This document shows positions 9,751 to 43,740 of a stretch of 64,000 bases of DNA, piece after piece. The position numbers and the translations under genes are program-made. Position 1 is the first letter of the stretch; every line of letters starts with the position of its first letter. Under the pieces are notes generated by a model. That model saw only the letters and a list, made by a program, of their open reading frames with translations. It had not been told where the DNA came from and did not search any database. Source of the DNA: Strigamia acuminata (Eukaryota); the NCBI GenBank assembly GCA_949358305.1, contig OX442314.1, forward strand, positions 30,814,001-30,878,000, given 5' to 3'.

Positions 9751-10546
9751 CTGCAAATAGAATTATTAGTCATATTCATAATACTTAAAAACTCATTTTA
9801 AATTAATGTTTTTTAAATTTCCGCCCTTGTCTGCGCTTTCCCTTGTGGCTCATTAGGGTTTCTCCATGTCGGGACTTTTGCTAAAACCAGTATTTCGATA
9901 TTCAATATTAAGAAAACCGGTAAACCGGTATTTTCCGGTAATAAAGTAAAATAAAACAGCTGCAATGTTAAGTATTTTTATTTTAATTGTAATGTTTTAA
10001 TGGTAATTTTTGTTTATTTCTATTAAATATAATTTTGAATGGGTTGTAGGAGCTTGATAAATGTTAAACTTGAAGTAAATAAAAGTTATTCAAAGTTTAC
10101 CAATTAATTTCCAAAGTTCTCTGGATACAAATGATGTTTCTTGAAGTCAAGTTGAATGTTGAAAATGGCGTTGGAGTTTCAAGGAAGCACGACCACACAG
10201 TTTAAGGTATAAAAGTACACTAACTTTATTCAATTCAAAAAGGTAACAAGTGATGCAAATTGTTGGTTTAGAATAAATACTCAATCATTGGAAATATCAA
10301 CAAGATGAATATGTCGGCATTTTATTCCAACTCGAACAACACTCTCATTACAATAACTACATCGGTTGCACTCCATTCTTGTGCAATCTCGTACGTCAAC
10401 AATACATCAATTAATACACTTAGACTATAACACTTTGTGATAAAAACATATCTACAAATCCCCTTCTTTTTACACAAAGTAAACAGCATTTAACAGACAA
10501 CAAAAATAACCCAAAAAATCGAATTTAATTAAATTCTTTCTTCTCT

Positions 10547-11362
10547 TCAATATAAACCCATTCCCTGCACACATTTGAGTAAAATCGGTCCGCTGAGCGG
10601 TTTGGTCAGCGCGTCCGCTATCATCTCCGTCCCGGGGATGTGCTCAACCCGTATATGGTCCGTCTCCACTCTCGCCTTAATGAAGTGGTATTTGCGATTC
10701 AAATACTTGCTTCTCACGCGTTGGATTCCGTCTTGTAACATCTGTACCGCCGCTTGGTTGTCGTTGTAGAGTTTGACATCTTTGTTAAATGTTGCGCCCA
10801 AGTCCTTCAAAACGGATTTCGTCCACGTTAAATCTCGTATCGCATCCGAAATGCCATCGAGTTCGCTCTCGCATGATGATTCGGCCACGTCGCCCTGTTT
10901 TCGACACTTCCAATTGATTAGCGAATCTCCATCTTTGACCACGTATCCCGTAAATGTCCGTGCGTCTGCCGTCGAATCCCAGCTAGAATCGGCGTGCGCG
11001 TATAGGCATGATTTTTCTTTCCCGTAATGCAACTTGTAGTTCTGCGTCCCACGGATGTAACGCAGTAAACGTTTGGCCGCAGCAAGGTGGATATCCTTCG
11101 GATCCTTATTAAATCTCGAGAGAGAACTGACTGGATAACTCAGATCAGGTCGTGTGCTTGTTGCCAAATACATCACGCTGCCTATTATTTCTTGATACAA
11201 AGTCGCATCCACCGGCGGGCTATCTGCAAACTCTTCCAGTTTCAGTCCCAGTTCGCACGGTGTGGCGTTTGCATTACATTTGTCCAAACCAAAACGTCGT
11301 AGCACCTTTTCGGCGTATTTGCGTTGAAAAAGTCTGATTTCGTTTTTGTCTCGTTCGATTTC
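10547..11362 (-). CDS. Copia RT C-terminus and RNase H
   Basis: YQEIIGSVMYL, TRPDLSY, ADSSWD, SSCESE, DNQAA, ADALTKPL. Continues in frame from GLEI at ~17010. Confidence 0.9.
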   Translation of the reverse strand, partial: EIERDKNEIRLFQRKYAEKVLRRFGLDKCNANATPCELGLKLEEFADSPPVDATLYQEIIGSVMYLATSTRPDLSYPVSSLSRFNKDPKDIHLAAAKRLLRYIRGTQNYKLHYGKEKSCLYAHADSSWDSTADARTFTGYVVKDGDSLINWKCRKQGDVAESSCESELDGISDAIRDLTWTKSVLKDLGATFNKDVKLYNDNQAAVQMLQDGIQRVRSKYLNRKYHFIKARVETDHIRVEHIPGTEMIADALTKPLSGPILLKCVQGMGLY

Positions 11363-11363
11363 T

Positions 11364-14300: not shown

Positions 14301-16807
14301 AAAGTTAAACTGACGAAATGGAAACGTTTAGTGAACTCTCTTTACTATTTTCGTTTGACAATTTAAGGAATACGAAGTATTTTAAATAAGAAATCAAAAA
14401 AGTTTCGAGTGAAATAAGAATACAGATATTTTTTTTCGAAGTTTGTTTTATTTCGAAAAGCTAAAAACATACAAGTTTAGAAGGCGGACTTCTTACGAAT
14501 TTATCTTTCCACCTGAAAAGTTAAAACGAAGAAAACACCGCAACTATTTGGAAATATTTACAAGAAATTAAGTTTCTTGTAACTGTACGTCGACACCGAT
14601 AGCCAGCGACCACGCGCCATAGCAATACGCGTCGATCTCCGTATCAAACGCAGCAGGGAAGCTACTCAAACCTTCAACGCAAGGTGCGAACGAATGCTTG
14701 GAAATTATGGCGGACAACAGATAAAAGACAGCGGAGAAATGTTACAGAAGGTTCGTAGAGATTTATTTAAGTGTCGCGAACTAATTTTTCCACTGCCATC
14801 GGTACCAAAGATAATTTAGTTGTTGGAGAAAAACAACACACTCCATTTCGCAGAAAAGATTTGCAAATCGAAATGAATATTACCTTTATTTGAAGGAATT
14901 AACTATTTTCACAAAAAGTACATTTTTTCCTTCGGGACAATGGAAATTAAGAAAATATAAAATGGCGGCGAATGAAGTTGCCGACCACGTAGAATAGTAT
15001 TTTTTACATTGAAAGTTACGAATCACGAAAAACGCTTTCCCTCGGAAAAGTAAAAGGATTTCATTCAATCTTTCCTTTCGGAAATTTAACAGTGTTTTAA
15101 GTTTCCAACGATATTTGGGTCTCCCAAATTTTGAGAATTTCTAAATGAAATTTAGCTGTTTGAAAAACAACGAATATTTTTAGTAATCTAATCGGACATT
15201 TTCCCACATGATTTCTTAAAACCGGAATAACAAATCCATTTGTGGCTATGAACTTTGCCACATGAAATATTTACGGAGCGAATATTTTTTGATTGGATTG
15301 AAGCTTTAAAAATCAGATAGCTGATTTAAACGAAGAAAATAAGTTTCAAAGTAATTATTTTTCTTTCGGAAAAATCAAATAAATCACCGCTGATGAAAAG
15401 TTGTATTTTTCCATTCGAAAAAACTAAGAATTGCACAAGATTTATCTTCTATTTTGAACATAGATTTTATTCGGAAAAGGAAAGATTCTAGATACATTAT
15501 TTTTCTCTAAAAATTAAGAATTTAGTCAATTTTCCTAAAGGTTAATGGAATGTCATCATATATTTCGTTCGTAATTTACGTGTTAAAGTTTAATCAGAAA
15601 AACGATTGAATATGTTTTATTTGCGATAAGTAAAAGAAAGGTTCTTTAAAAATGGAATTTCGATGCAAATCCCACAGTAAAGGGAATGTTATGTGTGAGC
15701 AATTAACGAAAAGTTGGAATAACTTCATTTTATTTCATTCAAAAGTAGTTGTGAAAAATCAATTTCAAATATTTTTCAAAGAAAAATTATTTTTATCGGA
15801 AAAAAGTAATTTACATGTCCTCGCGCGGACCGAGTAGTAAACTGCTTAATTGTGACATCGATACTGTTATTGTGTCACGTGTTATACGGAATTCCAAACC
15901 AGTGAATTACGAATTTTGGCGCGATAGGAATAGAAGTTTGACAGTGAAAGTTCTCCAGATTTGTCTTTTCATTTGAAAAGTTCAAATTGAGGAAATGCTG
16001 CAGCAGATGAAGGTATTTACGACAATTGAGATTTAAATATTCTTTCATTCAAAAGATAAAAGATCTCTGCAAAAACATCTCGTTATTAGAGATAAGGGGG
16101 ACGAAAATTATTAAAACGAATAATCAAAGACACGTCCTTCGTAAATATCGCAAAGGAATAACTAATTGTGAAAACAATTGTCCGCTCAGGAAAAGTGGAA
16201 TTTAGCTAGATATTTTCTTTCGAAAAATCAAAGCAATTGTCATCAAAAAAGAAAGATTTGATGAATAATTTTTACCCAAAAGTCTAAAGGATTGTCGAAT
16301 AGTTTTCTCCCGAAAAACAAGTACACATTTGTACCAATAACTTTATCGTTTAAAGTAAAATTTCGAATATTTTCTTTTGGAAGATTAGAGAATTAGATAA
16401 TTTTTCTCGCAAAACAAATTTAAAGAATTTTAACGAATTTTTATTTGTTAAAAAAATTTGTTAAAAAAGGGGGAGATGGATGGTGAAAATTTATTTTTTC
16501 ACACTCGAAAAATGGAATTTAAACCCGAAAAAGTAAAGACTTGGTCAAATTATTCTTCCTATTGGAAATGAATACACAATGTTGGGAATCGAAAATAGAT
16601 TTCAAATTACAAAGGAATGATTATTTGAACGATAATTGAATAAGAATAAGAAAAATTGAGAGTTTGAGAAAACTTTATTAAAGTTGTGGTTGTAACGATA
16701 TCACACACTAACGGAATAATTAAAAGAAAAATATTTTTTGAAGAAAAGTTATTTAATTATTTGGATTGGTAAAAATCCCAAAGTTCAAGAAGATTGAAGT
16801 AAGTTTA
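11364..16807 (+). mobile_element. Degenerate LTR element inserted in the Copia RT: ~1.9-kb LTR (11364-13285), tRNA-Gln PBS, decayed AT-rich internal region running into the gap
   Basis: Starts TATGACGG and ends CCGTCACA. TGGAGGTCCCACCGAGATT at 13288-13306 is complementary to the tRNA-Gln 3' end. Homologous to ~26010-28132. No intact ORF. Confidence 0.75.
13281..14370 (+). repeat. Tandem 235-bp repeat containing the PBS (three apparently identical units plus diverged copies)
   Basis: TCACACGTGGAGGTCCCACCGAGATTAGG at 13281, 13516, 13751 and 13986. Diverged copy at ~14170-14370. Confidence 0.92.
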
Positions 16808-17007
16808 NNNNNNNNNNNNNNNNNNNNNNNNNNNNNNNNNNNNNNNNNNNNNNNNNNNNNNNNNNNNNNNNNNNNNNNNNNNNNNNNNNNNNNNNNNNNN
16901 NNNNNNNNNNNNNNNNNNNNNNNNNNNNNNNNNNNNNNNNNNNNNNNNNNNNNNNNNNNNNNNNNNNNNNNNNNNNNNNNNNNNNNNNNNNNNNNNNNNN
17001 NNNNNNN
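16808..17007. other. Assembly gap (200 N)
   Basis: Run of N. Confidence 1.
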
Positions 17008-20000
17008 TCGATTTCTAATCCCAGAATGTACTTTAATTCGCCCATGTGAACTAATTCGACAAATTTCCCCAATTGTGCCATTTTCTCGTCTCGAAATTTA
17101 GCGCTAGAGCTGGCTGTGACGAGATCGTCGACATAAACTCCCATCATTATCACGCCTTGCTGACTTCTGCATATATACAGGCAAGGATCGTCCGGTGAGC
17201 GCTCAAATCCGCACTTTGTCAGTACCTCGTGCAACTTCTCATTCCAGCAGCGCCCGGATTGCTTTAATCCATATAAACTCTTCTCTAGTCTGCATACGCA
17301 ATCGCCCTCTCCAGTCTCGAAACCCTTTAGTTGCTCCATATATATCTTCTCCTTCAGTTTCCCGTGTAAGTACGCTGTCTTAACATCGTACTGGTCCAGA
17401 AGTAAGTCCTCTTTGGCTGCTACATTCAACAGTGTTCTCAATGACTCTATTCTGACCACTGGTGAGAATGTCTGATCGTAGTCCATTCCCGGTCTCTGTC
17501 CGCATCCGACCGCTACAAGTCGGGCTTTGTATCGAATTATCGAGCCGTCGGCATTTGTCTTTATGCGAAAAACCCATTTTGATTTAACTGGCTTTGCATC
17601 GCTAGGTCGCGGCTCTATTTTCCAAACTTGATGTTGGTGCATCGAATCTATTTCTTCCTGCATGGCCTTTCGCCATTCGTTTGCATCATCCGACGCCATA
17701 GCCTCTTCATAGGTGTTCGGTGTAAACATTATTTCCGCCATCAATGCCTGCTCTAGGATTTTTCTTGAGTGTCGTGCTCCTCGGTGTCGCGCTCCTCGTT
17801 GTCGCGTTCCCCGTTGTCGCAGTGCTTGCTCTCTAATCCTTGTTGAGCGTCGCACTCCTCGCTGTTGCAAATTCGCTTCGGTTTCGTCTATACGAGCTTG
17901 CTTGTTTGCTGCTAGCACTTCCTTGGTGGCGCCCGGCCTCCGTCCTCCCCTCCGAGCGGGCAACTGTTCCGGTACTGGAGCCACAATGGGTGGGTCCGGT
18001 TCGTCTATGTCTACATCCGGAGCAAGTTGTTCGATCGGTTGAGGCGGTGCTTCACCAAGGTCGTAAACAACGTCTAAATCCATCTGTTCTTAGGATTCAT
18101 CCGTCCGGTCAAGGTGAGTATCCCCCAATCGTGACTCTTCAAAAACTACATCACACGATTCTGTGATTTTCCCTGTGTCTCGCATAAATATCCTGTAGGC
18201 TTTCCTTTTAGTCGAATAACCCACTAGTATGCCTTCTCTGGTTTTGTCTTTCAACTTGTTTTGTCGAAATTTTGGTTCTAGTACGTGAGCCACGCATCCA
18301 AAGCGTCTCAAGTAGCTAACGTTGGGTATTCTCCCCTTCCAACGTTCGTAAGGCGTCTTGACGTGTGTACTCGTCTTGCACCTGTTGCGTAAATGAGCAG
18401 CTGTCAGAATAGCTTCGCCCCAAAACTTCTGTGGCAACTTTGAGTCCACTAATAAAGTTCGCATCGCTTCTGTCACGGTCCTATTCATGCGTTCTGCGAT
18501 CGCGTTGCTCTCGGGTGAGTATGAGGTGGTCAGTTCGTGTAAAATCCCCTTCTGAGTGAAGTATTGTCCCAAACTGTCATTCAAAAATTCCCCGCCATTG
18601 TCCGACCGTATTCGCTTCACCAATCGCCCCATCTGCAATTCAATATGCGCCACGAAGTCTTTGATTGCGGTCCCAGCTTCACTTTTAGTGCTCAATACTC
18701 TCAAAAATACCATTCGGCTACAATCATCAACCATAGTTAGCACATAACGCGCTCCCCCTAATGTGGGTACGGGCATTGGCCCCATCAAATCAACATGAAT
18801 TAATTCCATTATCTCTTAGGATTGTTGATATGAAACAGCACGTCGTGGAACCCTTGTCATCTTCCCTTTCACGCATTCCATACAAGTCTCATCTGGCAAT
18901 TTTTCATCCCAATTCAATCCTATTACAAGATTCTGACTTTTCATGTCTTCCATATTTTTGAAGTTTGGATGTCCCAATCTTTGGTGCCATAAAGTCCGTG
19001 TCAAACATTGTGTCGTACACGCTACCTCGTTAACAGGTTGTATGTGGTTGGCTTCATTGTATATCGCCCCAATCATAAATTTATCGTCAACACGCTGTGC
19101 CCTCATCACGTGATTTCCATCTTCATCTTGCACGTTGGCGCACTGTCGTGTAAACGTCACCGTCAACGCAGCATCGACCATCTTCGGAACAGATAGTAAA
19201 TTCGTCTGCAGGTTCGGAATATAGAGCACGTTGCTCAGACGTAACGTGTTCCTCGAAACGTCTTCTGTGACACGCATCTGCCCCCGTCCTGGTGACTTCG
19301 CTTCTGCCTCACTTGCCAGTCCGACTTTTTGCGGATATGACTCGAAAAACTCAAAATCATCTTTGTGTGATACCATGTGACTTGTTGCCCCTGAATCCAG
19401 AAGCCAGTCTTCAAGTTCATCCGGCGTTTCCTCATCGCTTTCCCGCTCAACAGCTTCATTAATCGCCAAAACTCTCGCTCCACACGAATATTCCCGTGGC
19501 TTGGGTGTTGGTCGCACCTCGCTTTGTGCTGACTGTTCATTTGTCCTATTTCCGCCACGTCCTCTGTTCGGCGTCCTTGTGTTTGTTGCGGTTCCACGTG
19601 GATTTGCATTTCCGCGCGTTGGATCACCCGTTTTACTTTTGGACCAACAGTCCTTGGCGTAGTGTCCAATCTTGTGGCAATTGTAACATTCAATGTTACA
19701 TTTCCCCCTTTGTCGAGTTCTGTACGCATTTTCGCTTCCATTTCCGTCGTGACTTTTCTTCTTTGCCCGCTGTCTTTCCTCTTCAAATCTCAAAGCAGTT
19801 CGAGCTTCACTCAAAGTCAAATTGTTGTTTTGTCCCTCAAAAATTCGCACATTGTGCTCAAATTCAACTCGCAGCCCTCGTGCTACGTAACTTAGCATCT
19901 CCTGATTGCTATATATTTTCCCAAGTTCCGATGCTTTGGTCTTTATTGCCTCTGCACGATTTATGTACGTATCAATCGTTTCTTTCTCGTTCATCTTGAG

Positions 20001-20384
20001 TTGCGCTAATTCTATGCCGCATTTGACCACTTCAAAATCGTTCTTTGGTCCCATGTGAGTCTCAATCGTTTCCCACAACTTTTTGGCGTTCGTTTCCATG
20101 CTGTAACGCACTCCTTGTTCCGCTGAAAGTGACAGCATCAAGATCCCCATGGCCTCGTCATTCTTCTGTTCCCAATTCTCCCAAATTGCCCTCATCTGGC
20201 CGTAATTTGCCTGTCCAAGCCGTCCTTTCTCCGGTTCGTCGTTCACGATCACCATCTTCCATAGGCCTTTCATCTTTAATACTGCTCGCAATCTCATCTT
20301 CCAGAGAAAATAATTCCTATCGGTCAACCTCTCGACCGTCGTTGATGAGGAGGAAACGTTCACAAATGAATCCGCCATCGCCAT
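17008..20384 (-). CDS. Copia gag-protease-integrase-RT polyprotein in one frame, with two in-frame TAA stops (18818-18816, 18092-18090)
   Basis: CYNCHKIGHYAKDC zinc knuckle, WLLDSGATSHM protease, LWHQRLGH...CMEC, RSDNGGEF, AERMNRT, YKARLVA, DVKTAYL, LYGLKQS, YVDD. Confidence 0.93.
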
Positions 20385-21801
20385 CTCTTGTCGTAACTCG
20401 TAGCAGACGACAGAAATGCAAAACAGGAATTAATTTCACGCCAAATATTTTCAAAACTTAGTGACACTAATAACTTGCGCTTTCCCAGACTCAGCATTCA
20501 TTCTTTCATCGCCATAATCGTAAAACCTCTCCTCTGCTACCACTTGTTGGTTTAGAATAAATACTCAATCATTGGAAATATCAACAAGATGAATATGTCG
20601 GCATTTTATTCCAACTCGAACAACACTCTCATTACAATAACTACATCGGTTGCACTCCATTCTTGTGCAATCTCGTACGTCAACAATACATCAATTAATA
20701 CACTTAGACTATAACACTTTGTGATAAAAACATATCTACACAAATGACGAGTTCGAAGAACCAATCACAAGCATTTACAAGATGGCGAAATGCAAATGAC
20801 GCGCTCGAATGACCAATGACGAGCGCATCACAATTTAGGGGACCTTAACATTCCTCAAAGGATTAGTATTCTAACATTCCAATTGTAAATGTAAAGTCAA
20901 AACACTTAAGTGGAAATAAAAGACATATTATAATGAATGATAAAACATAAATTCAATATTTAAAAATCACAAATTAAAATGGAAATATAAATTCAACAAT
21001 ACAAATCAAATAATACAACTAAACACGATTATTAATAAAGAACAACAATTTACTCGTAAAATCACCCGATTTTCACACTGCCGGGCGGGGATCACTTGAT
21101 TCTACTTCCAAACGCACAAGACGTTGTATCGGTCGACGCAAATGTTCTCCATTAGCGAGCACCATCTCACATGACCTGATTTTATTATCTTGACCCCGCT
21201 TAACTTCGACCACTCTACCCATTTTCCATTTTAGACGTGGTTTAAATAGCTCTTCAATCATAACGACGTCGTTCAACTGGAGTTCTCGCACACCTGGTTT
21301 GCCCGTTTGAATCTTCAGATCCGTCAAATACTCCCGAGACCAACGATTCCAGAATGAGAGTAATACGCGTTGTTGGTAGCGCCATTGTCGAATGAATTGC
21401 TTCTGAGTCGGTTCGAGGCTGTCTGATGCTCCCGAGTCGGGTAGGTGAGTCAACATCACACCGGTCAGAAAATGTGCGGGCGTGAGTGGCTCAATTTCGT
21501 TTGGGTCGTTGTATACATATGTGATCGGTCTGCGATTTATGACTGCTTCGGTTTGCACAAGAAACGTTCCGAGTTGGTAAAAGTTTAAGTGCGCCGAACC
21601 GATAGCTTTTCTTAAGCATCTCTTGACCGTTTGCACCATCCTCTCCCAGAACCCGCCCCACCACGGTCCATTCTCGACAATGAATCTCCATTCGACTCCC
21701 TTTTGGGCCAAATAATTTCGAAACGTCTCGTCCTTCGTGTGGTTTAAGAGTGAAGCTAGTTCTTTGTGGGCTCGGTGAAACGTGGTCCCGTTGTCACTAT
21801 A

Positions 21802-25413: not shown

Positions 25414-25864
25414 TCATTCGCATGTGCAGATTCCATCCCGCCATCCATGTTTGGTCATCGTTGTATTTACATAATTGTACAGAGTTGTCTTCTTATCACC
25501 ACGAGACGACCAGCACGTCACATATTTGCAAACATTTTGCAATGTTTGTTCTTTCGTTTCTATAACAAATATATAAAATATAATATAATGTAATATAATA
25601 TACTGGTAATATAATACCACAAAATACATGGCTCATTGCACCAAGCATGTCTAGTTTGCATTTTGGATAAAAAACATCCCATGTGGGGAGAGCGACAGTA
25701 TTGTCAGGAGTGTTGAAAACGTTTTCACAGTAATGATCCGCATCATTACAAAGGGCGACTAATTTCCAATTTTTCTCCAAATCCGCTTTAATTTGATCTT
25801 GACTCCCTGCATTCGTGCGACAAGAAGACAAACTCAAAACGAAACAAACAATCAACTGCCTCAT
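25414..25864 (-). CDS. Secreted 8-Cys protein, copy B (intron 25560-25617)
   Basis: Close paralogue of copy A, intact after splicing. Confidence 0.85.
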
Positions 25865-28132: not shown

Positions 28133-28567
28133 GGATGCCTGTTGCCCAAATATTTTCAAATTTCCCCCTGAATTTCCCATTCGATCACCGACTTTGGTGG
28201 ATCGTAACGCTACGTTTTTTTGACCAAATAAAAATATAAAAAAACAGGGTTGTGCAGATTTTTAATGTTTTCACATATTTTTAAACGACGTTTAATGTTT
28301 TCTTTGTAAATTTTTATCCATTTTTGGTCGGTTTTACTGCTTTTTAACAATATTTTAATGAATTTTTATTTTCGTATGCTTGATTTCATATGTTCGATTA
28401 TCTGAACAATTCGGTTTTATGAACACCCAAGTATCCGAAATCAGTTCGGATAATCGAAGCTTTTGATTGATTTAATTGAATTTATTTGTTAGAAATAGAT
28501 ATAATAATTTCAATGGTGTGGTTGGGGATTGAGTAGACTACACTATAAAAAAGGCAGGATTATTTTT

Positions 28568-28991
28568 TCATTCGCATGTACAGGTTCCATTGTGCCATCC
28601 ATGTTTGGTCATCGTTGTATTTTTATACGTGTACAGAGTTGTCTTCTTATCACCACGAGACGACCAGCACGTCACATATTTGCAAACATTTTGCAATGTT
28701 TGTTCTTTCGTTTCTATATCAAATAGATAAAATATAATATAATGAAATATAATATACCGGTAATATAATACCACAAAATGCATGGCTCACTGCACCAAGC
28801 ACGTCCCGTTTGCATTTTGGATAAAAAACATCCCATGTTTTGAAAATGTTTTCACAGTAATGATCCGCATCTTTACAAAGGGCGACTATTTTCCAATTTT
28901 TTTCCAACTCCGCTCTAATTAGATGTTGGCTTACTGCATTCGTGCAACAAGAAGACAAACTTAAAACGAAACAAACAATCAACAGCCTCAT
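28568..28991 (-). CDS. Secreted 8-Cys protein, copy C (intron 28714-28771; short variable loop)
   Basis: Paralogue of A and B. The in-frame stop lies inside the intron, so the spliced product is intact. Confidence 0.85.
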
Positions 28992-30064
28992 CTTGCAACA
29001 GCAAGTTGAAATGTATTCATATGATAGTGTCGATGTAGATAAGCGTGGAGCGTATCCTGTATAATTAATTTACATTGCTTTCCAAACAATAACTTCATCC
29101 CATAAACCCCACATTAATTAAAACAATCAATAAATTCAGAAGAATCCGGCTCCATCACATTAATTAATATAAAATAACACTCTTCATATCTAAACTTTAA
29201 CGTGATGCAGACTGATGTTTTGCTTCTGCAAATTCGGCGTAACGATGCCTTCGCCCGGGCTTCTGTGTCTCCCAACGTGATTAGCACCCACAAGGGTGTT
29301 AAATCTTGTGACCAGCTGCCCCCGCAGACTGATCACTCACCTGCAATTCCCGCTGGGGTGTCCGTTTTTCCGAATTTGATGCGCCATGGAAATCCCTGAC
29401 GCAAAACCGCCCAAGAAAACGCTTCGTCGCCCGCACAAACAAATCCAAATACACCCAATCATCGAGGAACCTCCTAACGACAAAATGGTTTTCGAATTTG
29501 GAGAAAAACGCGTCCAATTGGCGCTCAGTCATTTTCGAAAGCAAAAAGTAAGTTATGGCCGGATTTGTTATGAATCCAGATAAAACGATATTAGGTTTAA
29601 TACAAATCAATGCGTCCTCGCCATAGTACATTAAGTGGATAAGTGAGGAAAAAACACAGGAAGGATGTTCGCTCCAAATATGGTAGGAGCGTCCCCAAGT
29701 AATATAAAAAACTCAAACTACATAGATTACACAACGACATCAAGTGGTGATTTTTACACCAAATATTCTCAACAGGATTGGTTGCTAGCGGCAAATCGTT
29801 AATTGCGTCCACGCATTCGTCTCTTTCCTCGTGCATTAACAGCGTGCATTAACTCTCCTTGTTGATGGTTTGGAGTAAAATATGTTTAAATTACGAAATT
29901 AACCAAATGAACGAGTAGAAGATGGTATACAAATATACAGTATAAACCTACAAATAGAATGTGTGAAAAATGATTCGAAAAGAATTAATTTGTTTATTAT
30001 ATTTAATTAACATTCATAAAGTTTAAAATAAATAAAAATTAGGGAATATTTTTGTGAATCCCCA

Positions 30065-32098
30065 TCAATTCGATCTACAACTTGACAGTTGCAATCGTCC
30101 GATCAAATTGATCTTTCCTCGTTTCTCAACTTTTCCATTCCGAACCAAACCAAACTCGTCGTTTATCCAAAACCGCGTGTCCTTTTCCAACTCCGACGCC
30201 GACTTAACATTCGGACGACACACCACAACACCCACCGCAACCAACGACCACATCGTTCTCCTCAACTCCGCCTCGCACAGCTCGGTTGCCAACCCAAGTT
30301 CCCCGAACGAAATCAGCTCGTGCGGACGCTCGTTCCAAGCGAACAGCACCGTCACTTGAAAACACGTCACCTCCAGATCGAACTTGCCCACCGAATTGGC
30401 GAACGAAATCGTCCCAGTCGACAACTGATGCTGCCAAATAAGTTTCCTCCTTGGCTCCTGGTGCTGCTTCTTATAGAAGACCTCCATGTCGGAACAATAT
30501 CTCCCGAGCTCGGCCGGCAACGAAACCGGAACCACTTCATTATTCCGATCCCACGCGGAAGCGCTGAAAACTTTACTCGAAAATTTAAGATCGCAGCGGT
30601 CTCGCCGGAAGTCGTGATTTAAATCGCGGCTGCTTTTAACGTCGCGCAACATTTGCTTAAACCTGAACAGGTAATCGGACGACATTCCAATGTCCTTCAT
30701 GTTTTCGACCACTTCCGCCTCCATCTCGATGTCCGCCGACGTCTCCAAGACCAAACGCCTCGTCAAATGCGACTTGTAGAATTTCATGAAGACGTTTTTG
30801 TTGCCTAAATATTTCAGCAACGAAATCACGTCTTTCAACTTGCCGTCGATGTCTCCGGAAGTGAGTTTCTTGCGCAGTTGCGTCCTCCGCAACAACATGT
30901 CGCAAAAATTGGCCAAAAACTCCGCACATTGGCTGCAATCGTTGGTGATTGTCTTGAACGCTTTGTCTCGCGACGAAAGAGCTCTCGGGTCATTTTCATA
31001 CGCCACGTCGACCAATCGGTTGAACCTGTGGAACAGATCCAGCAGTCGTTGCACGTATTTCGCGCTATCCTCAAGAACACTTGCGGACATCTCCGCCAAG
31101 CACACGTCCACAATGGGCTCCTCTAATTTCGCGAGCATTGCGGTGCAGTCATCGGGCATTAGACTCATCAATCGATACATAATTTGCAGGTTTTCGGCGT
31201 CGTTTTGCTTCACCATCCCGGCAAATTGCGCTAAGATGGTTTCTTTAAACGGAACCACGAATAGATCGCCCCAAATACTCGTCAGCGCTTGTTGCGAGGC
31301 GTCGTCCGATTCCAAATACTTTTTTCCTCTTTCAGCTTCTTCTCTGATCTTCAAATCCGCGTATTTCATATATTCCTCGACTCCGTTCGTCGCCAAGTAC
31401 TCGGGCGCTTTAACGAGGTAAAAAGCATTTGTGTTCGCTACGTAATCTTTCTCGAACAGTTCTCGATAAACGGACAAATGGTGGTTCCCAAAATTGCTTA
31501 AGTTGAGGTTCGGTTCGTCCAATCCTAACAGTCGCTGAAGGTCGGGGGAAATCTCGTCTTCCGCTACGGTCAGAAGTTGAGCGGCGTTTAAATCCACGTA
31601 GGATTTGCGTACTGCAATTACCAATTGCAATTCGCACACTTCCCCGTTTCTCTCCTTTTCAATTAATTGAGTAACGACTCGTTGTAAATCCTGCTTAAAT
31701 TTTGACAACACGCAATTATTCCAACCATTTAGCATGATCCTGCAAACTTTGTCGCGATTTTGGTCGTATTTCGACCGAATTTTCGTCGGCACGGGGCGAA
31801 TTACTTTTGCCAAACGGTTGCAGGCTTCGTTAAAATTCTTCCATTCATGGATGTATGCTTTGACGAGTGCTTGGGCCTTTCGACGCGACAGTCGTCGTCT
31901 TGCGAGCCGCATCGCGGTCGAAACATCTTCTCGGAAGGTTGCGTACATTTTTATTTCTCCGTCTTCGTGGGAATGAACTGCATGCGCCGTGGCAACGAAT
32001 GCCTGCCATTTGACCTTAGAAATTGGTTTGTTCCGAAGAATGCGGACAGTTTCGATATGAATGGTTTCCAAGAGCGAGTTCAAATTTGAGACAGACAT
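30065..32098 (-). CDS. CUL5: Intronless, diverged cullin-5-like protein (677 aa) lacking the C-terminal neddylation domain
   Basis: LANFCDMLLRRT.L.KKLTS, HLTRRLVLETSAD.E.E, GKFDLEVT.FQ..VLFAWNERP, ELRRTMWSLVA and KRGKINLIGRLQL are CUL5-specific. Stop follows 6 codons later. Confidence 0.88.
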   Translation of the reverse strand: MSVSNLNSLLETIHIETVRILRNKPISKVKWQAFVATAHAVHSHEDGEIKMYATFREDVSTAMRLARRRLSRRKAQALVKAYIHEWKNFNEACNRLAKVIRPVPTKIRSKYDQNRDKVCRIMLNGWNNCVLSKFKQDLQRVVTQLIEKERNGEVCELQLVIAVRKSYVDLNAAQLLTVAEDEISPDLQRLLGLDEPNLNLSNFGNHHLSVYRELFEKDYVANTNAFYLVKAPEYLATNGVEEYMKYADLKIREEAERGKKYLESDDASQQALTSIWGDLFVVPFKETILAQFAGMVKQNDAENLQIMYRLMSLMPDDCTAMLAKLEEPIVDVCLAEMSASVLEDSAKYVQRLLDLFHRFNRLVDVAYENDPRALSSRDKAFKTITNDCSQCAEFLANFCDMLLRRTQLRKKLTSGDIDGKLKDVISLLKYLGNKNVFMKFYKSHLTRRLVLETSADIEMEAEVVENMKDIGMSSDYLFRFKQMLRDVKSSRDLNHDFRRDRCDLKFSSKVFSASAWDRNNEVVPVSLPAELGRYCSDMEVFYKKQHQEPRRKLIWQHQLSTGTISFANSVGKFDLEVTCFQVTVLFAWNERPHELISFGELGLATELCEAELRRTMWSLVAVGVVVCRPNVKSASELEKDTRFWINDEFGLVRNGKVEKRGKINLIGRLQLSSCRSN

Positions 32099-32359
32099 GT
32101 CGAAATGGAAACACAAATTCAAAGTTTAGATGATTGGGATAAGGTAGATGTGCCACATATATAGTCGCTTTGATGCGAACGTTATTCAAACGTAAAATGG
32201 GAACGTCTGTCGAACGATGCAACCGTACATTTATTTATTTTTTAAAATTTATTTTGCTGATTATGTTTTTTTTTTGTTATTTTCTTACTGCTGCACGTGG
32301 GTACAACGTCGACTGGGAAAACGTCACGATTTTTACGAGTAGGTGGAGGATGTATACAT

Positions 32360-32660
32360 ACGTGATTCATACAAGCTCCCCCATCGCTTCACTGCAGCGC
32401 ATCAAAGTAATTTGGTGTTTTTGAGAGTAAGCAATAAATTTAATTTGACCAATCAGGGTGAGACTAACTTTTATTTTTATTTTTTGTTAAAAAATGGTTA
32501 CAATTTTGGTTGCATTCTTTATTGTTTATGCCACTTTATTCCAGTCTGTATAAAACTTCAAAAGAAGAATCAAAATTTCTTCATTGACCACGGTAGTAAA
32601 AACAAACGTTTCATAATCATTACATTCATTTAGATGGTAAGACGTACAGTAAAAATCATT
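32360..32660. repeat. ~300-bp segment duplicated at ~36150-36450
   Basis: AAGCTCCCCCATCGCTTCACTGCAGCGCATCAAAG...ACAGTAAAAATCATT present in both. Confidence 0.85.
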
Positions 32661-34847: not shown

Positions 34848-35304
34848 TCATTCGCATGTGCAGATTCCATCGTGCCATCCATGTTTGGTCATCGTTGTAT
34901 TTACATAATTGTACAGAGTTGTCTTATTCTCACCACGAGACCACCAGCACGTCAGGTATTTGCAAACATTTTCCAATGTTTGTTCTTTCGTTTCTATAAC
35001 AAATAGATAAAATATAATATAATGTAATGTAATATACTGCTAATATAATACCACAAAATACATGGCTCATTGCACCAAGCATGTCCAGTTTGCATTTTGG
35101 ATAAAAAACATCCCATGTGGGGAGAGCCACAGTTTTGTTAGGAGTGTTGAAAATGTTTTCACAGTAATGATCTGCATCATTACAAAGGGCGACTAATTTC
35201 CAATTTTCTTCCAACTCCGCTCTAATTTGATGTTGGCTGTGGAACTCTGCATTCGTGCAACAAGAAGACAAACTCAGAACGAAGCAAACAATCAACAGCC
35301 TCAT
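34848..35304 (-). CDS. Secreted 8-Cys protein, copy D
   Basis: Same two-exon structure; C-terminus ETKEQTLENVCKYLTCWWSRG...WHDGICTCE*. Confidence 0.85.
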
Positions 35305-36960
35305 CTCGACAGTGTAGATGGAGATAAGCATGGAGCGTATTTTGTATAATTAATTTATATTGCTTTCCAAACAATAACTACATCCCATAAACCCCACATT
35401 AATTAAAACAATCAATAAAATCAGAAGAATCCGGCTCCATCACATTGATTAATATACAGGGTGAACAAAAAGTCTGTATCTTTACTTAATATTTTTGAAA
35501 GTGCTGACAATGCATCTGATCTAATGATGGCAAAGTACTCGTTCACAATTAACTCCTCGTCGCTGAATCGATGTCTTATCGGACTCAATTCCGCACTTCG
35601 TCTTCTCACTCGATCCGTCTCGGCCAGCTTGCGGCTCTTAGGCCGCAACGTTGTAACGTGACAAATTCACGAAATCTCTCCTCAACAGTCGTGTTGAGAC
35701 AAGATGACTCTAGCTGGAATTTTCCTCTCAGCTAGACAATTTCCCACCCAACTTGCAGTTGGCAAGAATAAAATTCCCGTGTCACAGTTGTGGTGACACA
35801 AGAAAGCTCCCACAATTACTTTGGTAATTGTAAGAAAAGAGTCTCAATACTCAGACAAATATCACAAAATCTACTTGAAGAATTCTAGGTTTTCAGGGGT
35901 AAATTTTCATGACTCGTTTTGCTCACTTGTCAGTTGGATTCAGACTGATTCTTTTCTGCTTTCTACAGGAAGCGTTTCCTGTTTGAGAATGCTGTGGGCT
36001 GGTTTCCTTGGCGACCACCCACATATTCTCCCGTTGTTTGACTTCCTTGTCTAGACACATGTATAAAAATAAACTCAAAAAATAAAAATAAAATAACTTT
36101 TTCAGACTCATTTCTGATTCTTCTACTAGTGACCACTAGGGTCACTACAACGTGATTAATATAAGCTCCCCCATCGCTTCACTGCAGCGCATCAAAGTAG
36201 TTTGGTGTTTTTGAGAGTAAGCAATGAATTTAATTTCACCAATCAGGGTGAGATTAACTTTTACTTTTATTTTTTGTTAAAAAATGGTTACAATTTTGGT
36301 TGCATTCTTTATTGTTTATGCCACTTTATTCCAGTGGGTATAAAATTTCGAAAGAAAAATCAAAATTTCTTCATTGACCACAGTAGTAAAAACAAACGCT
36401 TCATAATCATTACATTCATTTAGATGTTAAAACGTACAGTAAAAATCATTAAATCTTCCAATTACATAAATCTCCAAACCAGCTGTGGCAAAGTTACTTC
36501 GCGGACTAGATATTCACTTATCTTGGTGGAGTCAATAAGAGGTGCAAACTTTTTAAAGACTCGCACAAAAAAACAGTTGAAAAACTTTTGTAATACATAA
36601 ATCTTTTGAACTGTTTTATGTTTTATCTTCAAAAAAGGAAGACTAAAAACAAAAACAACTTTTAAAAACCAATTTATTGTGCAAATAGGAATTATTAACA
36701 AGTTTTTTTGTCAAACCGGTTCTTAATGTTTTTAAACGATTCTTAACCGGCTTTTAATGTTTTTTTGGTCAATTTTTATCCATTTTTGGTCGGTTTTAAT
36801 GCTTTTTAATAATATTTTAATGAATTTTTATTTTCAAATACCTCAATAATCGAGGCTTTTGATTGATTTGATTGAATTTATTTGTCAGAAATAGATACAG
36901 ATATAATTTCAATGGTGTAGTTGAAGATACTACACTACAAAAAAAGACATGATTTTTTTT

Positions 36961-37412
36961 TCATTCGCATGTACAGATTCCATCGCGCCATCCATGTTTG
37001 GTCATCGTTGTATTTACATAATTGTACAGAGTTGTCTTCTTATCACCACGAGACGACCAGCACGTCACATATTTGCAAACATTTTGCAATGTTTGTTCTT
37101 TCGTTTCTATAACAAATAGATAAAATATAATATAATGTAATATAATATACACGGTAATATAATACCACAAAATACATGGCTCATTGCACCAAGCATGTCC
37201 AGTTTGCATTTTGGATAAAAAACTTCCCATGTGGTGGGTTCGGCATTTTTGTCAGGATTGTTGAAAAGGTTTTCGCAGTAATGATCCGCATCATTACAAA
37301 GGGCGACTAATTTCCAATTTTTCTCCAAATCCGCTTTAATTTGATCTTGGCTCCCTCCATTCGTGCGACAAGAAGACAAAATCAAAACGAAACAAACAAT
37401 CAAAAGCCTCAT
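36961..37412 (-). CDS. Secreted 8-Cys protein, copy E
   Basis: Same structure. A 1-nt insertion confined to the intron shifts only the unspliced ORF. Confidence 0.85.
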
Positions 37413-37925
37413 CTTGTAACAGCAAGTCGAAATGAATTCAGATGACAGTGTAAATGCAGATAAGCGTGGAGCGTATCCTGTATAATTAATTTTTATTGCT
37501 TTCCAAACAATAACTACATTCCATAAACCCCACATTAATTAAAACAATCCATAAAATCAATAGAATCCGGCTCCATCACATTAATTAATATAGAATAACA
37601 CTTTTCATATCTCAACTTTAACTTGCAATTATTTAACTATTTTATTCATTCCTAGCGTAGAAAAATTTCCCTTCAGTTTAGCTGTTTTAATTTTATCTAC
37701 CAGGTGGCATTAAAATCCATTGAGATTCAATGACGTCAATCTTGACCCGGTCTCCCGTCTTGCCCTAACAACAGTATTAAAAGATAGACCGGGCAAATAA
37801 TGATAGATAAACTTAAAACAGCTAAACTGAAGGGAAGTACGACTGTGTGTTTGTTGATAAAAATTTGACTTGTAATTTATTTCAAAATCAGAATAAAATT
37901 TAAATGTCTAATGATCCAATAATTT

Positions 37926-38396
37926 TCAAGGATAGCACGCTAGAAGTGATTGAGTCAACCTCTGTAAGGTGCTGTTTAGCATGGCCTTTCGTTGCAATTG
38001 ATTAGTTTGATTAGGTCGATCCTTGCTGAAGTCTATTAATTGTTTTGCAATGAGAATTTGTTGATACAGATAATCAAATTCCAGGGAACCTGGTTCGTCA
38101 TTCATATCAGCCCCACACTCCCGGCAGATGTCACCCGCGACTGAATGATGCAAACAATTTTCAAAGATGAAAATCATATTACCCGACTCTAACATTTCGT
38201 AATTTGTCTTTAATGTCTGGACAATTGTTCCTGCCACGGTCGATTTATATTCTTTCTCCGACATTTCGTTAGGTAATTGGTACGAAAACAAAGTCATCCC
38301 CACGGAGATTTTGTCACCATTTTCAACGTTCCATTCGATAAGCCTCGCGCATGCGTATTCGGTAAAATAAATCGTCGTAGTGTTCTCGGCTTCCAT
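37926..38396 (-). CDS. FCP1/CTDP1 N-terminal-domain-only protein, copy 1 (156 aa)
   Basis: RLIEW.V..G...(lipoyl-like)...KSTVAGTIV...ENCLH..V.GDICRECGADM resembles the CTDP1 N-terminus. No DxDxT phosphatase or BRCT domain. Short helical tail. Confidence 0.75.
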   Translation of the reverse strand: MEAENTTTIYFTEYACARLIEWNVENGDKISVGMTLFSYQLPNEMSEKEYKSTVAGTIVQTLKTNYEMLESGNMIFIFENCLHHSVAGDICRECGADMNDEPGSLEFDYLYQQILIAKQLIDFSKDRPNQTNQLQRKAMLNSTLQRLTQSLLACYP

Positions 38397-39090: not shown

Positions 39091-39603
39091 TCAACTTTTT
39101 AAACGTTGCCTTTGCGGAGCTCCAACTAGCAGTGATTTCGTCAACTCACTAATCTCTTGTTCATAACCTTTTATGGTGCGGTTTAATATTGCCTTTCGGA
39201 ATAACTTATCAGTTTGATTACGTTGATCCTTGTACATATTCACCAATTGTTTCGCAATCAGAATTTGCCGGTTAATATAATCCAACTCATGCAGCCGACT
39301 TATCTCATTCACATCGACCGCACACTCCTGGCAAATGTTACCGATGACTAAGCGATGCGAACAATTTTCCAACACAAAAATCACATTCCCCGCCTCTAAA
39401 ATCTCGTCGTTTGCCTTCAGTATGTTTACAATTGTTCCAGCGACGGTCGACTTGTACTCCCTATGAGTTGCTTCGTTAGGTAGTTGGTAGGAAAACAGAG
39501 TCGTCGTCCGCGAAATTCTGCGACCACATTCGACTTGCCATTCAATTAGCCTCGCCAGCGGGTGTTCGAGAAAATGAATCGTCGTAGTGTACTCGAGTTC
39601 CAT
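39091..39603 (-). CDS. FCP1/CTDP1 N-terminal-domain-only protein, copy 2
   Basis: Paralogue of copy 1 with CSH..VIGNICQEC and a coiled-coil-like tail. Intact single-exon ORF. Confidence 0.75.
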   Translation of the reverse strand: MELEYTTTIHFLEHPLARLIEWQVECGRRISRTTTLFSYQLPNEATHREYKSTVAGTIVNILKANDEILEAGNVIFVLENCSHRLVIGNICQECAVDVNEISRLHELDYINRQILIAKQLVNMYKDQRNQTDKLFRKAILNRTIKGYEQEISELTKSLLVGAPQRQRLKS

Positions 39604-40759
39604 CGCAATCATCAACGGCGTGACTGTCAACGTTTCGGTCTGTTCTCGGCTGATGTATTAGTTCGGAAGTATCATCGGTATTTTCTCGTTTTCTTTTATT
39701 ATCTTGGATTTAATCGGGAGCGCACGTTACCAGCCGGTCATACATAAGAACAAACTATGATATTTTCGTTTCGGTTGTTGGAAAACCTGATACGGTAAGC
39801 GGAAAACCTGATTGTTTTCGATAGCGGATCACGATTAAATGTGAAATACTTTCAAAGTTCAGCTGCAGATTGTTATCGTTTTTATATCTGGACAACACTA
39901 ATTCACGTGGAATGTGATAAATATTTGTCAACTCTGTTTTTATTCACTCATTCATTGCTAAATTTCCTAAATTTCCCTCTACGTAAATGCCTAAAATAAG
40001 TTTAAACACAGCACAGTGCTAACTTTCTACTTTTTATTCATTTTTACAATGATATCTGTCTTGAAATTCGAGAATATTTACAACTTTGAAAGCCTTTTCC
40101 AGCAGGCTAAAAAGGTTACAGCTAAGGGGTGCTGGGTCCGCTGCAGTCGGGTTTTCTCTTTTGCCATCACTTCTGACGTCATCTCCGCCATTGCTCTCAC
40201 TGTCGCCGTATTCTTTTAACTTACCATTGAATTTAAATGGAATTTGATGACGTTTTCTACAACCTCCATCACCCTGAGCGACCTGCTTGTTTCCCGGAAC
40301 TCCAGCCGCGCCTTGCTGCGAGTGCACGACGACGATCGAGCAGAGAACGTGACTAAATTCCTACAATTGGACAAATGTTTAAAAAATGTGTGAAATATTT
40401 TGTCACTAGAAATCAGTACTTACGTACATGCCAATAGTTTATAATTTAAAATGCACACATAAAGTTTATTAATAAATATTACATACAAGAGATTAAATAT
40501 GAATGAACTATAAAATTGGAATGTAATGACGCTTTGATGCATTAAATCGAAATGCAAACACTCCAGTGAGAATTTATATGTTAAAAAATACAGGAACTCA
40601 TCAAAAGTGTTCCTGATTTGTGTAAAAGCAGTTTGTTACAGCCAAAAACGTCAATAAATACATTTATAACAAATTATCATTCCTTCAAAACCTTTTATTA
40701 CATTTTTTAATATTTTTTTAATTTGGTGCCATTCAGCATCCCATGTTTGGTGATCTTTG

Positions 40760-41725: not shown

Positions 41726-43740
41726 TTAATTATATCGTCCACCTCTACCTCTACCACGTTTTCTTGAACCCTCCTGATCGTCATTCTCCCAATTCCTTTT
41801 ATTATTATTACTTTCTCTCGCACGAAAATTCCTCTCGTTACGAACAACACGGTTATCCGAACGACCTCCACGGCCACGATGTCTCAACCGCGGGAAATCA
41901 CTACCTCTCTCATTACTCCGCAAATCATTGTCGCCAAACGACTGTCGATGGTCCATTTGAAGGAATTGAAACCTTTCAGGAATATCCCTTTGCTGGAACT
42001 GAAATCCATCTTGATGACGACGGAAATCGGGATTTGGACCTTCCGGTCTCAGCCACACAGCCGGCATTTGTCGATCCGTCGGCGGTAAACCACGAAAATC
42101 GCCACGACGTCTCAACCGCGGGTCTTCATTCCGTGCACACAACTCACTTCCTCTCTCATCGCCAAACGACCTTCGGTGGTCCATTTGATTGAATTGAAAC
42201 GCCTCTTTAGAAATATCCATTTGTTGGAACTGGAACCCATCTCGAGGACGACGGAAATCGTCATTCCCACCATCAGCTTTCCGCACAAACAGCCGCCATT
42301 TGCTCACCAGTCGTCGGCGTAGCAAGCAGCGGCGTTTTATGTTCCACCGGCCGCATCCACTCCTCTTGAAACTCGCGCGCAATTGGCTTCGAGTACGGCA
42401 CTTTGACCTGCAAATCCGATTCAAAATGGCGTGCATCGACCACCGGCGCTTCCACCACTTCATCTTTCGTTTCTTCTGGACTCATCGCGTCAAATTCCAA
42501 CCCCGGAATCGCCCGATCGGACTCTCTAAATACCGGTTCGTCATTCTCAGACACAACAGCTGTCGCGGCAGAATTCGTGTTGTATTTGTCCTGCATTTTA
42601 TCGCCGGGCGAATTCCTCGTCCAGAACTTACTCGAGTGATCGTTCGACCCGGAACACAAGATATGTCCGACCGGATGCCACGCCAGCGACCACACGATGC
42701 CGTCGTGCGCGTTCTCCATCGCCCCGACCTCCGATTCGGCGCCCACGTTCCAGAAGAGCACCGCGCCGTCCGACCCGCCGCTGCAAAACAACGTCTCGTG
42801 GATCGGATGCCACGCGAGACTCGACACCCCCTTCTTGTGTCCACGAAACGTGCGCACTTCCGGACTCGCCTTGCGCACGTCGAACAACTTGATCAGACCG
42901 TCTCTCGACGCCGTCAACAACCAATTCCCGTTCCGCCGCACGTCCATCGCGGCGCTTTTGTGCGAACGCAGCGTCGCCAAACACCGCCCGCTCTTCGGAT
43001 CCCAGAACTTGACCGGCTGCTGGCCGTCCTTGCTGCCGGACACGATTATCGCCTTCCGCGGGTGCCAGTCGACGGCCAACACGTCGGCGCCGTGGCCGCG
43101 CAGAATCCTCTCTTCGACGCACTGCTCGAAGTCCCAAATGCGGAGCGTCTCGTCGTCCGAACACGACGCGAACTTGGTGTCGTTCGGACAGAAACTGAGC
43201 CCCCGCAACGCCTCCTTGTGCGCCTGGAACATCTTGACGTTGTTCATGTTGGTCTGCCAGTATTTGGCGTATCCGGCGTGGTCGCCCGTCACCATCCACG
43301 TGTCGTTGTGGCTCCAGACCATGGCGCGGACGGGCGCGTCGTGCGCTTGGAGGATCGTTTCGAAGTTGAAGGTTAGGCCGTTCCAGAGGGTGAACTCGCC
43401 GCTGGACGCGCCGGTGACCAGGCGGCGGCCTTCGGGGGTCCAGGCGACGCAGTTGATGGGGCAGCGGGTTTTGTTGGTAGCGGCGCGGACGAATTTGGTC
43501 GTGACGGAGTTGGTTGGGTTGTGGGTCAGGTGCGATGGGGTAGGAGGTGTCGGGCTGGATGCAGTGTTGGTCGCGGTGGTCGCGCTGCCACACGCGGGCG
43601 AAGAGTTGGTTGATTATGGAGGAGTTGTAGTCGACGGTTTTACGTACGACGGCTTTTCGGAGACGTTTGCCGTCGAATTCTGTGGTTTGCGCGGGGAAGT
43701 TTGATGCGAATCGCGGTTGGGTGGGCGGAGGGGTTTGCAT
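41726..43740 (-). pseudogene. WDR33: Intronless WDR33 (Pfs2) copy with a frameshift at ~43535 and probably a second near 42290
   Basis: FDGKRLRKAV.RKTVDYN in one frame. TTKFVR..TNK..CP...[35 protein letters not shown] and the WD40 repeats through SKFWTRN.PGDKM.D.YN in another. Arg/Gly/Asp-rich tail in a different frame from the WD40 region. Confidence 0.88.

What the first reader, a model, noticed from the sequence alone, without database searches (positions are those of the whole stretch)
30065..32098. Intact CUL5 retrocopy ending just before the neddylation (WHB) domain, with a diverged N-terminus
Seen: a 677-aa open single-exon ORF, conserved up to KRGKINLIGRLQL and then stopping, with no WHB-like sequence downstream. 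The N-terminal adaptor-binding region is much more diverged than the core. Known: the WHB carries the NEDD8 acceptor lysine, and its removal has been shown to relieve cullin-RING autoinhibition in vitro. Inference: a NEDD8/CSN-independent or dominant-negative cullin with new substrate adaptors.
Basis: partly seen in the sequence, partly recalled or inferred. Interest (0 to 1): 0.72.

Follow-up and report, generated by a model that had tools for sequence, protein, structure and literature searches.

The report
Natural neddylation-free cullin-5 lineage in centipedes
This likely centipede gene is an intact cullin-5 copy that stops exactly where the NEDD8 on-switch domain begins, as does a distant Strigamia relative, and it likely encodes a ubiquitin-ligase scaffold that would work partly without its usual activation signal.

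Summary
Observation confirmed. An intact single-exon 677-aa CUL5 ORF (30065-32098, minus strand) loses homology at the human CUL5 695/696 equivalent. No WHB lies anywhere in the window.

It is not a fresh retrocopy. It groups with a diverged CUL5 paralogue clade of the centipede Strigamia maritima (100/99). One member, T1J7E6, is only ~40% identical, yet ends at the same motif and lacks the same 28-residue linker. Unnamed proteins of two further lineages also end there.

The break matches the engineered CUL5(1-696); H29/WHB deletions partly activate ARIH2 without NEDD8 (PMC8460447). In eight WHB-less proteins the NEDD8-docking residues are eroded (5 of 24 kept, 13.1 expected), while the ARIH2-groove arginines persist. 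Sequencing runs show several copies with the same stop and a synonymous excess (14 of 31); broken copies exist too.

N-terminal divergence is real but clade-wide, so not tied to WHB loss.

Best reading: a selectively kept, neddylation-independent CUL5 scaffold with changed adaptors (0.5). Rivals are a CSN/RBX/ARIH2 decoy or a decaying copy. Expression and binding are untested.

The parts
30065..32098 (-). Single-exon ORF, 677 aa, WHB-less CUL5 paralogue
31709..32098 (-). Cullin repeat 1 (aa 1-130), adaptor-binding end; strongly diverged
   Evidence: 24-29% identity to 12 homologues; 22 of 56 near-invariant columns kept
31967..31972 (-). S43/H44, in place of human L52/W53 at the adaptor-binding end
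   Evidence: L in 68 of 71 and W in 70 of 71 canonical CUL5; L52/W53 critical for Vif binding (PMC7354603)
31502..31588 (-). In-frame insertion of about 30 aa (aa ~171-199), low pLDDT over most of it
30932..30937 (-). Site of the 28-aa deletion of the linker between N- and C-terminal halves (aa 388/389); same deletion in Strigamia T1J7E6
30086..30934 (-). 4HB plus alpha/beta and WHA (C/R) domains, the RBX-binding half; keeps R447 (=R460), R405, K410, R653, K662; G599 replaces NEDD8-contact E617
30083..30097 (-). Gate/groove loop R668-S672 (human 691-695), the last homologous element
   Evidence: an 83%-alike paralogue contig leaves the window sequence at 30084 and goes on in frame
30065..30082 (-). 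Five-residue tail (SCRSN) and TGA where helix H29 and the WHB would begin
   Evidence: same stop in at least three other 3'-end versions in runs X1/X2
29993..29998 (-). AATAAA 67 bases after the stop, possible poly(A) signal (weak: 1.8 per kb per strand across the window)

Best explanation
The ORF is an intact CUL5 paralogue that lacks helix H29 and the WHB, and it likely encodes a selectively kept cullin scaffold that is predicted to bind an RBX RING protein and to support partial ubiquitin ligation without neddylation.

Shown: the fold, the exact end at the gate/groove loop, the lack of a NEDD8 lysine, membership in the Strigamia paralogue clade, a second Strigamia protein with the same two losses, and several copies with the same stop.

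Inferred: (1) The C/R domain still takes the RBX strand. (2) With H29/WHB gone, the RING and the 4HB groove are no longer blocked, so ARIH2 or an E2 can work at a basal, NEDD8-independent rate, as with the engineered CUL5 deletions. (3) It cannot be switched off by deneddylation, so control would fall on expression and copy number. (4) The changed helix-2 surface recruits receptors other than the canonical ELOB/C-SOCS box ones. (5) The clade probably arose by retroposition or intron loss, lost the WHB once or twice by deletion or nonsense change, and now turns over by DNA-level duplication and loss.
For: Break position: it equals the lab construct 1-696 and the start of H29 (697), and H29/WHB deletions raised ARIH2-mediated ubiquitylation above unneddylated CRL5 (PMC8460447; mapping).

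Second Strigamia protein: T1J7E6 (P0205, 658 aa, ~40% identical) ends GRLQFSR and has the same linker deletion. Both lie in one clade with four WHB-bearing Strigamia paralogues (100/99); a WHB-less pair is not rejected (p-AU 0.238).

Other lineages: P0216 (cluster of three 691-aa members) and P0232/P0237/P0238/P0267 end within 0-3 residues of the same motif and fall outside the Strigamia clade.

Residue test: the NEDD8-docking stripe E617/L621/E624 is kept 5 of 24 times in eight WHB-less proteins against 13.1 expected from their background (p 0.0007). In eleven diverged WHB-bearing controls it is kept 23 of 33 times against 24.0 expected. R460/R691 positions are R in 13 and K in 2 of the 15 filled positions.

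Selection among copies: 14 of 31 listed base differences in the ORF are synonymous, against 22-30% expected (p 0.003-0.052, rough omega 0.34-0.52). Ten of the twelve listed indel rows lie in the 185-base 3' flank; the two in the ORF part sum to 3 bases in one contig. A neutral ORF of this size stays open in 3.3% of simulations at 4% divergence without indels and in none with them.
Against: No expression data and no binding test exist.

The C-terminal half has diverged faster than in WHB-bearing paralogues (4HB: 53 of 89 near-invariant columns kept against 67-70), which also fits relaxed constraint.

The best tree does not make the window ORF and T1J7E6 sisters (84/86 for the alternative), and exclusive shared residues do not decide (16 vs 19 vs 19).

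T1J7E6 is a database model whose DNA I could not inspect. The unnamed proteins are calls on contigs, and eight relatives end at an intron read-through ('LW|VS'), so false ends exist in this data set.

The stripe statistic treats related proteins as independent (5 of 8 belong to one family), and the window protein itself keeps 2 of 3 stripe residues. R460/R461 probably also serve CSN binding (K441/R442 of Cul2; correspondence inferred), so their conservation does not single out ARIH2.

The variant list is a best-supported subset, unphased, and mixes close copies with ~83% paralogues; the first subset alone gave 4 of 12 synonymous, as neutral.

Broken copies exist: a 791-base deletion removing the start in X1 and a net 7-base gap in an X3 contig. 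In the paper, deletions did not reach the neddylated activity level.
Confidence: 0.5

Rival explanations
1. Functional decoy: the protein is expressed and kept by selection, but acts by soaking up CSN, RBX2 or ARIH2 and so tunes the full-length CUL5 paralogues, without ligating ubiquitin itself.
For: Truncated Cul2/Cul3 bind more CSN2/CSN5, even without substrate receptors (PMC3237615). The adaptor end has lost L52/W53, while the 4HB arginines are kept. WHB-bearing paralogues exist in the same clade.
Against: The whole helical N-terminal half stays intact and well folded (pLDDT mostly above 85 in residues 11-100 and 221-400), which a pure sink would not need. WHB-bearing paralogues have an equally changed N-terminus, pointing to new adaptors rather than none.
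Confidence: 0.18
2. Decaying or relaxed duplicate: this copy is a recently multiplied, untranslated or unselected member of a birth-and-death family, and the clean ORF reflects recent copying.
For: Most copies in X2 differ by only 1-3 bases per 100-130. Broken copies exist. A neighbouring intronless WDR33 copy has two frameshifts. Near-invariant residues are lost faster than in WHB-bearing paralogues. The first variant subset was neutral-like, 4 of 12 synonymous.
Against: The same end and linker deletion occur in a protein only ~40% identical. There is a synonymous excess overall, and indels crowd the flank rather than the ORF. All length changes against homologues are in frame.
Confidence: 0.18
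3. Non-catalytic receptor scaffold: like CUL7, it is not neddylated and brings substrates to a neddylated full-length cullin.
For: CUL7 is a precedent for an unneddylated cullin coupled to CUL1 (PMC9507964 abstract). Full-length paralogues coexist in the clade.
Against: CUL7's RING is constrained, whereas loss of H29/WHB frees it. No bridging domain is seen in the ORF.
Confidence: 0.09
4. The truncation is apparent only: a distant exon supplies the WHB, or the assembly is wrong here.
For: No RNA data and no whole genome were available.
Against: No WHB in 30 kb downstream. Contigs of two studies carry the same stop and flank. There is no consensus donor site at the break, and intron read-through products of canonical CUL5 break elsewhere (P0003 and P0100, 22 residues later).
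Confidence: 0.05

Closest known systems
Cullin-5 (CRL5 scaffold: CUL5-RBX2-ELOB/C-SOCS box, with ARIH2)
   Same: Cullin repeats, 4HB, alpha/beta and WHA domains; 42-45% BLAST identity to canonical CUL5; ARIH2-groove residues kept
   Different: No H29, WHB or NEDD8 lysine; L52/W53 replaced; linker deleted; 30-aa insertion; intronless and multi-copy
Engineered CUL5(1-696) and H29/WHB deletions (PMC8460447); C-terminal deletion mutants of Cul2/Cul3 (PMC3237615)
   Same: Same end point as 1-696; cannot be neddylated
   Different: Natural, diverged throughout, and with a changed adaptor end; activity not measured
Strigamia maritima T1J7E6 (UniRef name Cullin-5, 658 aa)
   Same: Same end motif, same linker deletion, same clade
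   Different: Only ~40% identical; sister relation unresolved; no 30-aa insertion
Strigamia maritima T1IRX8, T1J995, T1J146, T1J697
   Same: Nearest sequences (48-51%); equally diverged N-terminus
   Different: All four keep the WHB (HMM scores 135-142), the linker and the E-L-E stripe
CUL7 (CRL7-FBXW8), and APC2 and CACUL1 (the last two recalled, not tested)
   Same: Cullin-family proteins that work without neddylation of their own
   Different: CUL7's RING is constrained and it couples to CUL1 (abstract); by recall APC2 keeps a WHB and CACUL1 has only a short cullin part

Membership tests
Cullin-5 family | Cullin repeats plus cullin homology (4HB, alpha/beta, WHA) with CUL5 as best match | tested here: met
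Cullin-5 family | C-terminal H29/WHB with the NEDD8 acceptor lysine (K724) | tested here: not met
Cullin-5 family | Adaptor-end residues L52/W53 | tested here: not met
   S43/H44 against L 68 of 71 and W 70 of 71; role from a passage on Vif binding
Cullin-5 family | ARIH2-groove residues R460, R691, K418, K423, K676, K685 | tested here: met
   R447, R668, R405, K410, R653, K662
Cullin-5 family | Binds RBX2 through the intermolecular C/R domain | not tested
Cullin-5 family | Ubiquitin ligase activity | not testable with these tools
   needs reconstitution
Strigamia diverged CUL5 paralogue clade | Groups with T1IRX8, T1J995, T1J146, T1J697 and T1J7E6 | tested here: met
   100/99, long-branch caveat; 35 residues shared with at least 3 of 4 paralogues and absent from 8 canonical CUL5, against 25 the other way
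WHB-less subclade with T1J7E6 | Sister relation of the two WHB-less proteins | tested here: inconclusive
   best tree separates them at 84/86; p-AU 0.238 for the pair; shared end and linker deletion
Processed retrocopy | No introns where the parent has them | tested here: met
   single ORF; canonical homologues show intron read-through ends
Processed retrocopy | Poly(A) remnant and target-site duplications | tested here: not met
Pseudogene | Frameshift or premature stop inside the retained part; dN/dS near 1 | tested here: inconclusive
   no break in this copy; 14 of 31 synonymous among unphased differences; broken sister copies

The most novel reading that the evidence does not exclude
Animals have repeatedly evolved neddylation-independent CUL5 ligases by cutting the protein at the gate/groove loop. 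The Strigamia lineage and at least two unnamed lineages would each have converged on the engineered CUL5(1-696) design, shed NEDD8-docking residues, kept the ARIH2 groove and gained new adaptors. That would make a class of CRL that runs outside the NEDD8/CSN cycle.
Probability: 0.4. Interest if true: 0.85.

Novelty: new variant of a known kind. Interest (0 to 1): 0.72.

Why it matters
Neddylation is treated as the obligatory switch of cullin-RING ligases, and WHB-less cullins appear in the papers I read only as laboratory constructs. A natural, selectively kept and apparently recurrent version would show that cells can tolerate and use a cullin outside the NEDD8/CSN cycle. It would also give natural sequences for testing the allosteric model of CUL5-ARIH2 activation, namely which changes stabilise the open groove without H29 or NEDD8. 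Such ligases would be predicted to resist neddylation inhibitors. My searches found no report of them; subscription papers are mostly not covered.

Tried and rejected
Whole genome: none held, so paralogues and synteny could not be read directly.

Expression: no RNA holder listed. Run X6 covers only flank repeats. Neither says anything about expression.

Close orthologues: none above 51% identity among near-length proteins; the best short fragments reach 63% over small conserved stretches. None of 7 window proteins is in the collection by exact match.

WHB remnant: an alternative-frame stretch after the stop looked by eye like the WHB end but scored nothing; rejected as AT-rich chance.

Fresh-retrocopy hallmarks: none found. 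Truncation by polyadenylation in the conserved intron was rejected, because read-through products break 22 residues later.

Rows dropped: of 147 representatives, 67 reach query position 640 and 19 of those lack a WHB. I looked up 10 of the 19 and used 7 in the stripe test. P0246 is marked partial, P0247 ends where canonical read-through artefacts end, and P0241 has a 27-residue tail. The other nine were not used; several look like intron read-throughs or other cullins. P0215 was kept although it ends about 15 residues early.

Profile search with WHB-less proteins gave no named relative.

Trees: fell back to the quick tree; one search is quick, with long branches meeting.

Copy number: summed depth was not used as a count.

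Atlas look-up of a neighbouring peptide did not complete. Earlier findings: three look-ups, nothing. Duda 2008 and Yamoah 2008 were not held, so they are cited only through other papers. No complex prediction was run.

Full report
OBSERVATION. The window holds one open frame of 677 aa at 30065-32098 on the minus strand. Pfam finds only Cullin, residues 19-649. Human CUL5 is the best solved match, and the alignment runs to the GRLQLS motif, human 691-695/696. The AlphaFold model from a 76-row alignment has mean pLDDT 79.8 and matches CUL5-RBX2 first. WHB tails from 118 of 120 homologues find nothing in six frames of the window (best E 0.07 by tblastn, 0.82 by HMM). Residues 1-130 are 24-29% identical to 12 homologues, against 55-66% for residues 561-671. 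There are also an in-frame insertion of about 30 residues and a 28-residue linker deletion.

WHAT IT IS. The nearest proteins are four diverged CUL5 paralogues of the centipede Strigamia maritima (48-51%), all with a WHB. A search of 1.84 billion representatives, screened for proteins that reach the end of the core without a WHB (19 of 67, from 147 screened), gave a fifth: T1J7E6, 658 aa. It ends GRLQFSR and has the same linker deletion, at only ~40% identity. All six form a clade (100/99). The best tree puts the two WHB-less proteins on successive branches (84/86), but their pairing is not rejected (p-AU 0.238). So the WHB was lost either once, long ago, or twice at the same point along with the same linker. 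Both readings imply selection, if the T1J7E6 model is right. The window's organism is therefore likely a centipede near Strigamia (inference from the tree).

COPIES. Contigs from three runs of two studies cover the gene in many versions, 80-100% alike. Besides the window's, at least three 3'-end versions keep the same TGA. One X2 contig differs at 7 of 73 flank bases and at none of the last 29 coding bases (26 on the ORF side of the stop, short of the tool's 31-base bridging rule). One X1 contig at 83% likeness leaves the window sequence at 30084 and continues in frame (LQLSTDGGE by hand translation), which places the break after S672; the contig ends before any WHB could be seen. Of 31 listed base differences in the ORF, 14 are synonymous against 22-30% expected (p 0.003-0.052). 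These are the best-supported rows of longer tables (752 and 48 rows not shown), unphased, and I left out five rows around one 3-base gap. The first subset alone was neutral-like (4 of 12). Ten of twelve listed indel rows lie in the flank. Broken copies also exist, and a neighbouring WDR33 copy is frameshifted. This fits a birth-and-death family with some constrained members.

RECURRENCE. Unnamed proteins outside the Strigamia clade end within 0-3 residues of the same motif: P0216 (three 691-aa members) and P0232, P0237, P0238, P0267. Their last residues differ and mostly do not fit a GT donor read-through (inference). Eight relatives do end at a read-through upstream, so caution is needed, and their taxa are unknown. 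A test on residues named in the literature supports real loss of neddylation: the NEDD8-docking stripe E617/L621/E624 is kept 5 of 24 times in eight WHB-less proteins against 13.1 expected, and 23 of 33 times against 24.0 in eleven diverged WHB-bearing controls. The rows are not independent, and the window protein keeps two of three.

HOW IT LIKELY WORKS. In PMC8460447 (passages) H29 spans 697-725 and the gate/groove loop 691-695. NEDD8 activates CUL5 by moving H29 and the WHB away, and deletions of them, with 1-696 among the constructs listed, raised ARIH2-mediated ubiquitylation above the unneddylated level but below the neddylated one. The ORF is a natural equivalent of 1-696 and keeps R460, R691 and the four basic groove positions. 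I infer an RBX-bound scaffold with a free RING and an accessible groove, active at a basal rate and not reversible by deneddylation. Truncated Cul2/Cul3 are reported as constitutively active and bind more CSN (PMC3237615, passages), which also opens the decoy reading. At the adaptor end L52/W53 are replaced by S/H (role from a passage of PMC7354603). The WHB-bearing paralogues are as diverged there, so new adaptors are a clade trait. RBX binding, activity, adaptors and expression are all untested.

ORIGIN. The gene is intronless while canonical homologues show intron read-through ends, so an old retroposition or intron loss is plausible. No poly(A) tract or target-site duplication remains. Copies share flanks, which points to DNA-level duplication since then.

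COMPARISON AND NOVELTY. It belongs to the CUL5 family by descent but fails two defining features of CRL5 scaffolds (WHB lysine, L52/W53). CUL7 is an unneddylated cullin of a different design (PMC9507964, abstract). Searches for cullin with Strigamia, for naturally truncated cullins (no hits) and for paralogues lacking the winged helix, seen as listings only, showed no such report. The Strigamia genome paper's main text has no 'cullin'; its supplements were not read and may list the family. Also seen: passages of PMC8418054, PMC4878873 and PMC11779939 and listings.

VERDICT. Real feature, new variant of a known kind. Odds: neddylation-independent ligase scaffold 0.5, decoy 0.18, decaying copy 0.18, CUL7-like receptor 0.09, artefact 0.05. 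Interest 0.72.

Noticed in passing
window 41729-43740 (-): Intronless WDR33-like copy (WD40 by Pfam; gene name recalled) split over three frames by two frameshifts.
   Followed up: partly
window 4803-5168, 25496-25864, ~28500-28900, 34930-35331, 37107-37535, 62581-62931: Repeated family of small cysteine-rich ORFs with a signal-peptide-like start; five units are 85-93% alike. No Pfam hit for the two tested. The copy next to the cullin has an internal stop. The cullin sits between two units. Function unknown; venom or defence peptide is a guess.
   Followed up: partly
window 37926-38396, 39091-39612, 53967-54464 (-): Three related 156-173 aa ORFs (72-80% DNA identity) that resemble the N-terminus of the FCP1/CTDP1 phosphatase (recalled; no Pfam hit for the one tested) without a phosphatase domain: a second family of truncated duplicates.
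   Followed up: no
window 47276-49726 (-): Single-exon LRR-TIR Toll-like receptor, 816 aa.
   Followed up: no
window 6883-7824 (-): Single-exon Glyco_transf_49 ORF of 313 aa.
   Followed up: no
window 58647-59682 (+): Ion_trans domain in two overlapping frames; CatSper-like by recall, not tested.
   Followed up: no
window 10260-20740: Copia-like LTR element with identical 197-base terminal repeats and the window's only gap, 200 N at 16808-17007; gag-pol reads in several separate ORFs.
   Followed up: no
window 32355-32660 and 36146-36450: A 306-base stretch upstream of the cullin recurs 3.8 kb away at 94% identity.
   Followed up: no
runs X1/X2, loose ends at window 30170, 30735, 30829: Loose contig ends translate by hand to stretches like the WHB-bearing Strigamia paralogues, so the organism has further, more distant CUL5 paralogues.
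   Followed up: partly
proteins P0238, P0247, P0241, P0267: Members of the unnamed diverged CUL5 family also lack most of cullin repeats 2-3, giving shortened scaffolds of 451-551 aa.
   Followed up: no
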